64,000 nucleotides of DNA from Escherichia coli (lineage in GTDB: Bacteria > Pseudomonadota > Gammaproteobacteria > Enterobacterales > Enterobacteriaceae): NCBI RefSeq assembly GCF_029227855.1, contig NZ_CP074356.1; one strand, 5' to 3'. A program made the translations under genes and the position numbers. The notes beneath the pieces are model-generated. The model searched no databases, was not told the origin of the DNA, and saw nothing but the letters and a program-made list of their open reading frames with translations. Below, in pieces: positions 5,166 to 7,313 of the stretch (position 1 is its first letter; every line of letters begins with the position of its first letter).

Positions 5166-6529
5166 ATGACAAGGATAAAAATAAACGCACGCCGTATCTT
5201 CAGCTTATTGATTCCTTTTTTCTTTTTCACTTCTGTTCACGCTGAACAAACGGCAGCTCCCGCAAAACCTGTAACTGTGGAAGCGAAGAATGAAACCTTT
5301 GCCCCGCAGCATCCCGATCAATATCTCTCCTGGAAAGCCACCTCGGAACAGTCAGAGCGTGTTGACGCCCTGGCGGAAGATCCACGGCTGGTGATCCTGT
5401 GGGCGGGGTATCCCTTCTCGCGCGATTACAACAAGCCGCGTGGACATGCCTTTGCTGTGACCGATGTGCGTGAAACCCTGCGTACCGGTGCGCCGAAAAA
5501 CGCTGAAGATGGTCCGCTACCGATGGCGTGCTGGAGTTGTAAAAGCCCGGATGTGGCGCGTCTGATCCAGAAAGACGGCGAAGATGGCTACTTCCACGGT
5601 AAGTGGGCGCGCGGCGGCCCGGAAATCGTCAACAACTTAGGTTGTGCCGACTGCCATAACACCGCCTCACCAGAGTTCGCCAAAGGCAAACCGGAGTTAA
5701 CCCTTTCCCGTCCGTATGCGGCTCGCGCGATGGAAGCCATTGGTAAACCTTTTGAGAAAGCCGGACGTTTCGACCAGCAATCGATGGTTTGCGGTCAGTG
5801 CCATGTGGAGTATTACTTCGACGGCAAAAACAAAGCGGTTAAATTCCCGTGGGATGACGGCATGAAAGTCGAAAATATGGAGCAGTATTACGACAAAATT
5901 GCCTTCTCTGACTGGACTAACTCCCTGTCGAAAACGCCAATGCTGAAAGCGCAGCACCCGGAATATGAAACCTGGACAGCGGGCATTCACGGTAAAAACA
6001 ACGTGACCTGTATCGACTGCCATATGCCAAAAGTGCAGAACGCCGAAGGCAAACTCTACACCGACCATAAAATTGGTAATCCGTTTGATAACTTCGCCCA
6101 GACTTGTGCGAACTGCCATACCCAGGACAAAGCTGCCTTGCAAAAAGTGGTCGCGGAACGTAAGCAGTCGATTAACGACCTGAAAATCAAGGTTGAAGAT
6201 CAACTGGTTCACGCTCACTTCGAAGCGAAAGCAGCGCTGGATGCAGGCGCGACGGAAGCCGAAATGAAGCCAATTCAGGACGATATCCGTCATGCCCAGT
6301 GGCGCTGGGATCTGGCGATCGCTTCCCACGGCATTCATATGCACGCACCGGAAGAAGGTTTACGGATGCTCGGTACGGCGATGGATAAAGCGGCGGATGC
6401 ACGCACCAAACTGGCGCGCCTGCTGGCGACCAAAGGCATCACCCATGAAATCCAGATCCCGGATATCTCAACCAAAGAGAAAGCCCAGCAGGCTATTGGC
6501 CTGAACATGGAACAAATCAAGGCCGAGAA
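5166..6529 (+). pseudogene. nrfA: Cytochrome c552 nitrite reductase NrfA, 3'-truncated after about residue 454; frame reads on to 6830 through antisense yhjC
   Basis: ORF 5133..6830; native NrfA begins at [19 protein letters not shown] (5166) with CxxCH/CxxCK haem motifs; identity is lost after ...[10 protein letters not shown]. Confidence 0.85.
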
Positions 6530-6530
6530 T

Positions 6531-6794
6531 GGTGGCATCCTGTTGAAACAGACCGTCCAGTTCGCTGAGATTACTCAACACATCTTTTGCTCGTTGATAA
6601 TAGGTCATGCCTTCTGGCGTGAGTTTGACCCGTCGCGTGGTGCGCTGGAGAAGCTGGGTGCCAAGTTGATGTTCCAGTGCCTGTATCTGGCGCGAAACAC
6701 TTCCTTTTGGCAAAGCAAAGAAATCCGCCGCGCGGGAAAAACTTTCCAGCTCCGCGACTTTGATGAACAACTGCATTGCGTGAATTTTATCCAT
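6531..6794 (-). pseudogene. yhjC: LysR-family regulator YhjC, N-terminal HTH fragment (about 88 codons) only
   Basis: ORF 6468..6866 contains [45 protein letters not shown]...QQDAT then 20 unrelated codons that are antisense nrfA. Confidence 0.8.
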
Positions 6795-7313
6795 TTCTTT
6801 GACCGATTGTTGTTCACAGCGAAACAGTAACGCGCATATCGCATTGTTTATTGTTTTTTCTAACATCTAATGCCGGGTTTCACAATGTTGTCATGACGAA
6901 TGTGGCGATTTCTCAGCAGGAAAAGGGCGGAATAGCTTTCTGAGAAAGGTGAATCCCCCTAAACAGAGCGTATTTTTCAGCGATTCCCTTTAAAGTGAAT
7001 AGAGGACGTGTTGGCTATTTGTGCTTATTTTTGTCTCATTGCCGTTTGTTATTTTTGCTTGTGGTCGCGGAGTTTCATTTTTAATTGCATGCGTACTAAC
7101 CACCAATATAAGGAAATCCTCAAAATTGTTTTAAATAGTGCCCTCGACATGTAATTTCAGGCGTTTAGCTGTAACTATTTATATCGGTAACTATTTTCTA
7201 CGCGTCATCTCTGTAGAATGGCCACCGCCAAATGGCGAATTCTTATTTTTTCTCGCGGGTAATACCCTTCCACTACTTAAGTCTTTTTAACGTATTCAGG
7301 TGGAGATTCAGTT

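What the first reader, a model, noticed from the sequence alone, without database searches (positions are those of the whole stretch)
6468..6866. Synteny breakpoint at about 6529: 3'-truncated nrfA fused tail-to-tail to 3'-truncated yhjC
The NrfA frame is native from 5166 to ...[10 protein letters not shown] (about residue 454 of 478) and then becomes 100 codons of antisense yhjC, ending at 6830. On the opposite strand the YhjC HTH domain (88 aa, ...QQDAT) is followed by 20 codons of antisense nrfA. Gene order left of the junction (yjcF-actP-yjcH-acs-nrfA) and right of it (yhjC-yhjB-treF-yhjA-gadA...) belong to loci that in K-12 lie roughly 0.6 Mb apart on opposite sides of oriC (recalled, approximate). 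Orientations on both sides fit a single inversion with endpoints inside nrfA and yhjC. No IS, rRNA or long repeat is visible at the junction. It would leave nrfA without nrfBCDEFG and yhjC without its effector domain. A chimeric assembly is the alternative.
Basis: partly seen in the sequence, partly recalled or inferred. Interest (0 to 1): 0.8.

Follow-up and report, generated by a model that had tools for sequence, protein, structure and literature searches.

The report
Probable assembly join, not inversion
Two ordinary E. coli chromosome regions that normally lie 616 kb apart are butted together inside two genes, and because the sequence on one side carries a private cluster of sequencing-type errors, this is most likely an assembly artefact rather than a real chromosomal inversion.

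Summary
nrfA runs natively from 5166 to 6529. From 6530 onward the sequence is the antisense of the first 265 nt of rcdB (yhjC). The join is blunt, with no shared or inserted bases. The geometry fits one junction of a 616-kb inversion spanning oriC.

The junction is absent from 5,426 complete E. coli genomes, from species-representative genomes, from JGI metagenome contigs and from a 15-billion-protein collection. No repeat, IS, scar or homology marks the break.

The 6.5 kb left of the junction differs from its closest relatives by six deletion events and no substitutions. Four are in short homopolymers. They frameshift yjcF, actP and acs, and they become denser towards the window start. The 57 kb right of the junction has no such error, and about 50 genes there are intact.

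This fits a poorly supported stretch of sequence, such as the tail of a chimeric long read or a low-depth contig, attached to a well-supported chromosome segment, probably near a contig end.

A real homology-free inversion is not excluded (about 0.13). Deciding needs the raw reads or the rest of the assembly. Interest is low.

The parts
1..6529 (+). Left block: yjcF' (cut by the window edge), actP, yjcH, acs and the nrfA 5' part. It is collinear with the K-12 4.28-4.289 Mb region in K-12 orientation.
   Evidence: It aligns as a single HSP to the nrf locus of strain 2014C-3307, with 0 substitutions and 7 deleted bases.
111..3702 (.). Six private deletion events at window positions 111 (2 nt, AT of ATAT), 150 (AAA>AA), 510 (AAAA>AAA), 1173 (CCC>CC), 1543 (a lone G between C runs) and 3702 (GGG>GG). 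They frameshift yjcF, actP (into 3 ORFs) and acs (into 2 ORFs).
   Evidence: seen again against a second reference. Broken ORFs are shown. None of the top-scoring complete genomes shares them. The probability that all six fall in the left 6.5 kb by chance is 1e-6, and the gradient toward the window start has P=0.002.
5166..6529 (+). nrfA 5' part: 1,364 of 1,437 nt, covering residues 1-454 of 478.
   Evidence: tblastn with reference NrfA. The Pfam Cytochrom_C552 match ends at model position 420 of 438.
6529..6530 (.). The junction itself. It is blunt, with no shared bases, no inserted bases and no scar.
   Evidence: Base-by-base comparison with both parental loci. The two HSPs abut exactly.
6530..6794 (-). 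rcdB (yhjC) 5' part: 265 of 900 nt, covering residues 1-88 (HTH domain only).
   Evidence: Reference annotation and coordinates. Pfam finds HTH_1 only and no LysR_substrate domain.
5166..6830 (+). Chimeric ORF of 554 aa: NrfA residues 1-454 followed by about 99 codons of antisense rcdB.
   Evidence: The product is not on record in public gene calls.
6468..6866 (-). Chimeric ORF of 132 aa from the upstream ATG, or 108 aa from the native start at 6794: RcdB residues 1-88 followed by about 20 codons of antisense nrfA.
   Evidence: The products are not on record.
6530..64000 (+). Right block: rcdB'-yhjB-treF-ccp-gadA-gadXW-mdtFE-gadE-hdeDAB-...-ars-gor-prlC-dtpB-uspAB-pitA-yhi-rbbA-nik-...-yhhQ'. 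It is collinear with one chromosome stretch (K-12 about 3.67 Mb downward) in reverse K-12 orientation, and the sequence is clean.
   Evidence: No indels against GPEC1222 over 6530-40142. It has the same length as S1-CAM-02-A over 40000-64000. About 50 genes are full length.

Best explanation
The join at 6529|6530 most likely does not exist in the cell's DNA. It is an artefactual join made during sequencing or assembly.

The well-supported chromosome segment starts inside rcdB (6530 onward). Attached to it is about 6.5 kb of poorly supported sequence copied from the acs-nrfA locus of the same strain background.

The most likely route is a chimeric long read, meaning two unrelated fragments ligated blunt-end during library preparation or read as one molecule. 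Such a read would extend a contig end. Its tail would then be polished badly because depth is low at a contig terminus, or because the same sequence also sits at its true locus elsewhere in the assembly. A close variant is a short low-depth contig abutted to the next contig without a spacer.

Shown: the blunt homology-free junction, its uniqueness, and the one-sided error cluster.

Inferred: that the errors reflect low read support, that the window start lies near a contig or record end, and that an intact nrfA-nrfB and an intact rcdB exist elsewhere in the same genome.
For: 1. The junction is absent from all 5,426 complete E. coli genomes, each of which carries the two halves at separate places. 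It is also absent from species-representative genomes and JGI metagenome contigs. The chimeric proteins are not on record among public gene calls. No junction-spanning protein was found in a 5.8-billion-cluster search. Ten contigs with the same YhjB allele all have an intact rcdB-yhjD-yhjE.

2. The junction is blunt, with 0 nt of microhomology, no insertion and no scar. There are no repeats at the junction, and the parental break sites share nothing above shuffle level.

3. The left flank has 0 substitutions but six deletion events against its closest relatives. Four are in 3-4-nt homopolymers and one is in a dinucleotide repeat. They frameshift yjcF, actP and acs, and they recur against a second reference. 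No natural mutation spectrum gives 6 indels and 0 substitutions, but consensus error from long reads does.

4. The 57.5 kb on the right has no such error, and about 50 genes there are intact. The chance that all six events fall left of the junction is 1e-6. At the left-flank rate, about 53 events would be expected on the right.

5. Error density rises toward window position 1 (P=0.002), as expected at a contig terminus. A junction within one long-read length of a contig end is what a chimeric terminal read produces, and would be a roughly 1% coincidence for a real inversion.

6. Precedent: an unrelated public draft contig, CCCB01000042.1, carries an obviously artefactual hycG'|rcdB' join 60 nt away. 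Noncontiguous sequence in a contig is a recognised failure class of long-read assemblies (PMC6966772).
Against: - The orientation of the two flanks is exactly that of an oriC-spanning inversion, which keeps gene orientation relative to replication. A random chimeric ligation would give this orientation only half the time.
- The resulting replichore imbalance (oriC displaced by about 110 kb) would be tolerated. Imbalances below about 10% have little effect (PMC4173774).
- Both flanks fit one strain background, so there is no sign of cross-sample contamination.
- The last deletion (3702) lies 2.8 kb from the junction, so the error-rich zone does not end at the breakpoint.
- Modern long-read assemblers are reported to be largely robust to chimeric reads (PMC6966772).
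- Neither reads, coverage, nor the rest of the assembly could be examined. That the window start is near a contig end is an inference.
Confidence: 0.8

Rival explanations
1. A real inversion of about 616 kb (more in strains with extra islands) spans oriC, with endpoints inside nrfA and rcdB. It would have arisen by illegitimate, homology-independent breakage and rejoining, such as topoisomerase/gyrase subunit exchange or end-joining of two double-strand breaks. It could be clonal, or present in a subpopulation of the sequenced culture. The subclonal case could also explain low read support on one side. It would inactivate Nrf nitrite reduction and the RcdB regulator.
For: The flank orientations and the position of oriC between the breakpoints fit junction 1 of such an inversion. 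Both flanks come from one strain background. The replichore shift of about 110 kb is within the tolerated range (PMC4173774). No Ns or adaptor-like bases sit at the join.
Against: - It is a singleton in every collection searched.
- It has no IS, rrn or prophage repeats, whereas all 19 inversions in the long-term evolution experiment were mediated by repeated elements (PMC4173774).
- It has 0 nt of microhomology.
- The one-sided cluster of deletion errors, and its gradient toward the window start, have no explanation under a clonal inversion.
Confidence: 0.13
2. The window joins DNA from two different strains or samples, either as a contamination chimera or as records concatenated across genomes.
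For: GPEC1222, the genome closest to the right flank, differs from the left flank by 32 substitutions but from the right flank by only 3 in 25 kb. Sequence quality also differs between the two sides.
Against: Strain 2014C-3307 matches the left flank with 0 substitutions and the first 13.5 kb of the right flank with 7 substitutions. One B1-type background therefore accounts for both sides. The uneven similarity elsewhere is the usual recombination mosaic of E. coli.
Confidence: 0.04
3. The inversion was deliberately engineered, for example with Cre/lox, FLP/FRT or recombineering.
For: The junction is clean and lies inside two dispensable genes.
Against: No loxP, FRT, att or marker scar is present, and no bases are inserted. 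The background is a wild B1-type strain rather than a laboratory strain. No such construct appears in the literature searched. This reading does not explain the error cluster.
Confidence: 0.02

Closest known systems
Chimeric or misassembled contig joins in bacterial genome assemblies (the 'noncontiguous sequence in the contig' class of Wick & Holt, PMC6966772)
   Same: The junction is unique to one assembly, blunt and free of repeats. It lies next to sequence with long-read-type homopolymer deletion errors and probably within one read length of a contig end. A clear example at nearly the same spot is CCCB01000042.1 of GCA_000945835.1.
   Different: This join has no Ns or ambiguous bases, and it is the only one in 64 kb. 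The precedent contig has five joins in 16 kb. Read support could not be inspected, so the classification is inferential.
Inversions symmetric about the replication origin (Eisen et al. 2000 X-alignments, cited in PMC4173774; the W3110 rrnD-rrnE inversion, from my own knowledge)
   Same: The endpoints lie on opposite replichores, 253 kb and 363 kb from oriC. Gene orientation relative to replication would be preserved.
   Different: Known E. coli examples recombine between inverted repeats such as rrn operons, IS elements and prophages. Here neither endpoint has any repeat or homology. The reciprocal junction has not been seen.
Illegitimate recombination in E. coli (short-homology-independent and gyrase-associated, or microhomology-dependent alternative end-joining; from my own knowledge)
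   Same: It would be the only biological route to a repeat-free junction inside two unrelated genes.
   Different: End-joining in E. coli typically uses 1-9 nt of microhomology, often with resection. This junction has 0 nt. Such events are rare and are mostly documented as deletions in selected laboratory systems, not as 0.6-Mb inversions in wild isolates.

Membership tests
Real chromosomal inversion spanning oriC | Flank orientations are those of an inversion junction, with oriC between the breakpoints. | tested here: met
   K-12 positions are 4,289,127 (plus orientation) joined to 3,672,678 (descending), with oriC at 3,925,744-3,925,975.
Real chromosomal inversion spanning oriC | The reciprocal junction (rcdB 3' part joined to nrfA 3' part-nrfB) is present in the same genome, and the intact parental loci are absent. 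| not testable with these tools
   Only the 64-kb window is available. The source assembly was not found in any collection.
Real chromosomal inversion spanning oriC | Inverted repeats (IS, rrn, prophage) at the two endpoints, which is the usual mechanism. | tested here: not met
   The flanks abut exactly with no extra sequence. There are no repeats at the junction. Homology between the parental sites is at shuffle level.
Real chromosomal inversion spanning oriC | The junction is reproducible in independent genomes or assemblies. | tested here: not met
   It is found in 0 of 5,426 complete genomes. There are 0 hits in genome contigs and metagenome contigs. The proteins are not on record. Relatives have an intact rcdB.
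Assembly chimera / misjoin | The junction is private to one assembly and lacks any recombination signature (repeat, microhomology, target-site duplication, scar). | tested here: met
Assembly chimera / misjoin | A discontinuity of sequence quality or support is associated with the join. | tested here: met
   There are six deletion events and 0 substitutions in 1-6529, against none in 6530-64000. Three of four complete left-flank genes are frameshifted, against 0 of about 50 on the right. The last error lies 2.8 kb from the join, so the boundary is not sharp.
Assembly chimera / misjoin | No reads, or only isolated reads, span the junction, and the parental loci are intact elsewhere in the assembly. 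| not testable with these tools
   Reads and the rest of the assembly are not available.
Microhomology-mediated end-joining product | Shared bases (1-9 nt or more) at the junction. | tested here: not met
   There is 0 nt of overlap on either side.
Recombinase-engineered inversion | A loxP, FRT or att scar at the junction. | tested here: not met
   No bases lie between the nrfA and rcdB sequence.

The most novel reading that the evidence does not exclude
The junction is real. A wild B1-type E. coli would carry a roughly 0.6-Mb inversion across oriC, created by homology-free illegitimate recombination inside nrfA and rcdB. This would abolish Nrf nitrite ammonification and truncate the RcdB regulator to its DNA-binding domain. 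It could exist as a subpopulation in the sequenced culture.
Probability: 0.13. Interest if true: 0.35.

Novelty: not a real feature. Interest (0 to 1): 0.1.

Why it matters
If the join is an artefact, as seems most likely, its value is quality control. The record would contain a spurious 6.5-kb piece with false frameshifts in yjcF, actP and acs, and false truncations of nrfA and rcdB. Those should not be read as pseudogenes or as loss of Nrf function.

It also gives a practical diagnostic. A private synteny break bordered on one side by deletions with no substitutions points to an assembly problem.

If the join were real, it would be a rare documented case of a large repeat-independent inversion across the origin in a natural isolate. 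That would be of modest interest for chromosome-rearrangement mechanisms, but it would still be a single-strain variant.

Tried and rejected
- I searched for the junction as a 40-mer in species-representative genomes and in JGI metagenome contigs. Nothing was found.
- I looked up the chimeric proteins (554, 108 and 132 aa) and the truncated Acs (363 aa) by exact sequence, hoping to recover the source contig and its ends. None is on record.
- I searched with a junction-spanning peptide. The one hit covering more than either half (P0002) briefly suggested a recurrent breakpoint in rcdB. It turned out to be an unrelated mosaic draft contig with many N-marked joins, so I rejected the hotspot idea.
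- I looked for microhomology, or direct or inverted homology, between the parental break sites. Everything was at shuffle level. Repeats around the junction were chance-level only.
- I tested for a cross-strain chimera by comparing each flank with the other flank's best-matching genome. One strain matches both flanks well, so I rejected that idea.
- I looked up the YhjB allele to find close relatives. The allele is widespread, and every carrier has the normal arrangement.
- GC skew across the junction is uninformative at this scale, and the geometry predicts no switch anyway.
- A literature search for an nrfA/yhjC inversion found nothing relevant.
- I did not scan for the reciprocal junction. 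The source assembly is evidently not in the collections, so a negative result would say nothing.

Full report
**1. What is in the sequence**

An ORF on the plus strand (5133/5166-6830) begins as NrfA. A minus-strand ORF (6866-6468) begins as RcdB/YhjC.

I aligned the window to reference chromosomes. Positions 1-6529 form one block collinear with yjcF-actP-yjcH-acs-nrfA. Positions 6530-64000 form one block collinear with rcdB-yhjB-treF-ccp-gadA...yhhQ. The two alignments abut exactly.

Base-by-base comparison with the intact parental loci shows a blunt join. No base is shared and none is inserted. nrfA keeps 1,364 of 1,437 nt, and rcdB keeps 265 of 900 nt.

Pfam agrees with this. The chimeric NrfA matches Cytochrom_C552 up to model position 420 of 438. 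The chimeric RcdB retains only HTH_1.

**2. Geometry**

In K-12 MG1655, nrfA is at 4,287,764-4,289,200 (+) and rcdB is at 3,672,414-3,673,313 (+). oriC is at 3,925,744-3,925,975.

The breakpoints correspond to 4,289,127 and 3,672,678, which is 616,449 bp apart. They lie 363 kb and 253 kb from oriC on opposite replichores. The window reads upward to the nrfA break and then downward from the rcdB break. That is one junction of an inversion of the oriC-containing segment.

Such an inversion would preserve gene orientation relative to replication and would shift oriC by only about 110 kb. Imbalances below about 10% are reported to have little effect (PMC4173774).

**3. Is the junction seen anywhere else?**

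It is not.

- Of 5,426 complete E. coli genomes, 5,425 contain both halves but always at separate places. None has them contiguous.
- A 40-mer across the junction has no exact match in the species-representative genome collection or in the JGI metagenome contigs.
- Neither chimeric protein, nor the truncated Acs specific to this window, is on record among public gene calls.
- A homology search with a junction-spanning peptide found only normal NrfA C-termini, an occasionally called antisense-rcdB ORF, and one unrelated chimera described in section 6.
- Ten contigs that carry the window's exact YhjB allele all have an intact rcdB followed by yhjD and yhjE.
- No paper describing such a rearrangement was found.

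**4. No biological recombination signature**

No IS element, rRNA operon, prophage end or other repeat lies at the join. The two parental sites share no homology above the level of shuffled controls, in either orientation. There is no recombinase scar.

The inversions documented in E. coli arise by recombination between repeated elements. All 19 inversions in the long-term evolution experiment did so (PMC4173774).

**5. The decisive observation: the two sides are not of equal sequence quality**

Against its closest relatives, the left block has no substitutions but has six deletion events totalling 7 nt. They lie at 111, 150, 510, 1173, 1543 and 3702. Four shorten 3-4-nt homopolymers, one removes a unit of ATAT, and one removes a lone G between C runs.

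The same six events appear against a second, more distant reference. None of the best-scoring complete genomes shares them. They split actP into three ORFs and acs into two, and they frameshift yjcF.

The right block is different. It has no indel at all over 6530-40142 against GPEC1222. It has the same length as S1-CAM-02-A over 40000-64000. About 50 genes there are full length.

Six indels with no substitutions is not a natural mutational spectrum. It is the residual-error spectrum of long-read consensus at low support.

If such events were spread uniformly, the chance that all six would fall in the left 6.5 kb is 1e-6. At the left-flank rate, about 53 would be expected on the right. The events also crowd toward window position 1 (P=0.002), as expected where read depth tapers at a contig terminus.

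**6. A precedent**

The peptide search turned up P0002 from contig CCCB01000042.1 of GCA_000945835.1. It is a HycG fragment fused to the same antisense-rcdB frame, 60 nt from our breakpoint.

That contig is a mosaic with five joins in 16 kb, most marked by scattered Ns. It comes from a different strain. It is an evident misassembly and not evidence of a hotspot. Given the size of the database and that contig's density of joins, one hit in this 300-nt interval is unremarkable. It does show that gene-internal chimeric joins of this kind exist in public E. coli assemblies.

**7. Strain background**

GPEC1222, the genome closest to the right block, differs from the left block by 32 substitutions. 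However, 2014C-3307 matches the left block perfectly and matches the first 13.5 kb of the right block with only 7 substitutions. One B1-type background therefore accounts for both sides. There is no evidence of cross-sample contamination. This result does not separate a real inversion from a within-genome chimeric read.

**8. Interpretation**

The best-supported explanation (about 0.8) is an artefactual join. A poorly supported 6.5-kb stretch copied from the acs-nrfA locus was attached to a well-supported chromosome segment that begins inside rcdB.

The most probable route is a chimeric long read extending a contig end. Polishing of that tail would have been impaired by low terminal depth, or by the tail duplicating a locus present elsewhere in the assembly. 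Abutting a short low-depth contig without a spacer is a close variant.

- Shown: the blunt, unique, repeat-free junction and the one-sided error cluster.
- Inferred: the link between the errors and read support, the nearness of a contig end, and the existence of intact nrfA-nrfB and rcdB elsewhere.

Several points count against this reading. The orientation happens to be the replication-compatible one, which has a 50% prior for a random ligation. The error zone stops 2.8 kb short of the join. Modern assemblers are reported to be fairly robust to chimeric reads (PMC6966772).

A real homology-free inversion, possibly subclonal, remains possible (about 0.13). Cross-strain chimera (about 0.04) and engineering (about 0.02) are unlikely.

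**9. Verdict**

- The inversion interpretation is only partly supported. The geometry is right, but the reality of the junction is doubtful.
- Novelty: most likely not a real feature.
- Interest is low (0.1).
- The frameshifts in yjcF, actP and acs, and the truncations of nrfA and rcdB, should not be taken as biology without read-level confirmation.

Noticed in passing
L007 (CCCB01000042.1 of GCA_000945835.1), locus positions 7796, 9688-9691, 10349|10350, 14305-14315, 15818-15820: This public E. coli draft contig is a mosaic of 2-8-kb pieces (ubiI-gcvTHP-ygfF-bglA | LysR gene | hycG fragment | rcdB'-yhjB-treF-ccp' | other). Most joins are marked by scattered Ns. It yields a called chimeric protein, P0002 (HycG'-antisense rcdB). 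The assembly looks heavily misassembled.
   Followed up: partly
window 40143-40169 (pitA-uspB intergenic): The window lacks about 125-150 nt that GPEC1222 has between pitA and uspB, and the two BLAST alignments overlap by 27 nt at this point. S1-CAM-02-A has the same length as the window. This is probably a copy-number polymorphism of a repetitive extragenic element.
   Followed up: no
window about 45240-46430 (DUF4049 / yhiL-like gene next to yhiJ): This region is highly variable, with many small indels between strains. It is annotated as a pseudogene (internal stop or frameshift) in both references examined. It is the only place on the right side where indels against the references occur.
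   Followed up: no
window about 53700-54320: A hicA/hicB toxin-antitoxin pair sits between nikR and yhhJ, as in GPEC1222. This is a strain-variable insertion.
   Followed up: no
E. coli genome collection: Every search matched 5,425 of 5,426 genomes. One 'complete E. coli genome' lacks all of these core loci, including the unrelated gcv region. It may be a mislabelled assembly, or the window's own genome withheld from the collection.
   Followed up: no
window 25600-26720: The ORF between slp and the permease/ars cluster is annotated as a frameshifted hypothetical pseudogene in both reference genomes. It was not examined in the window.
   Followed up: no
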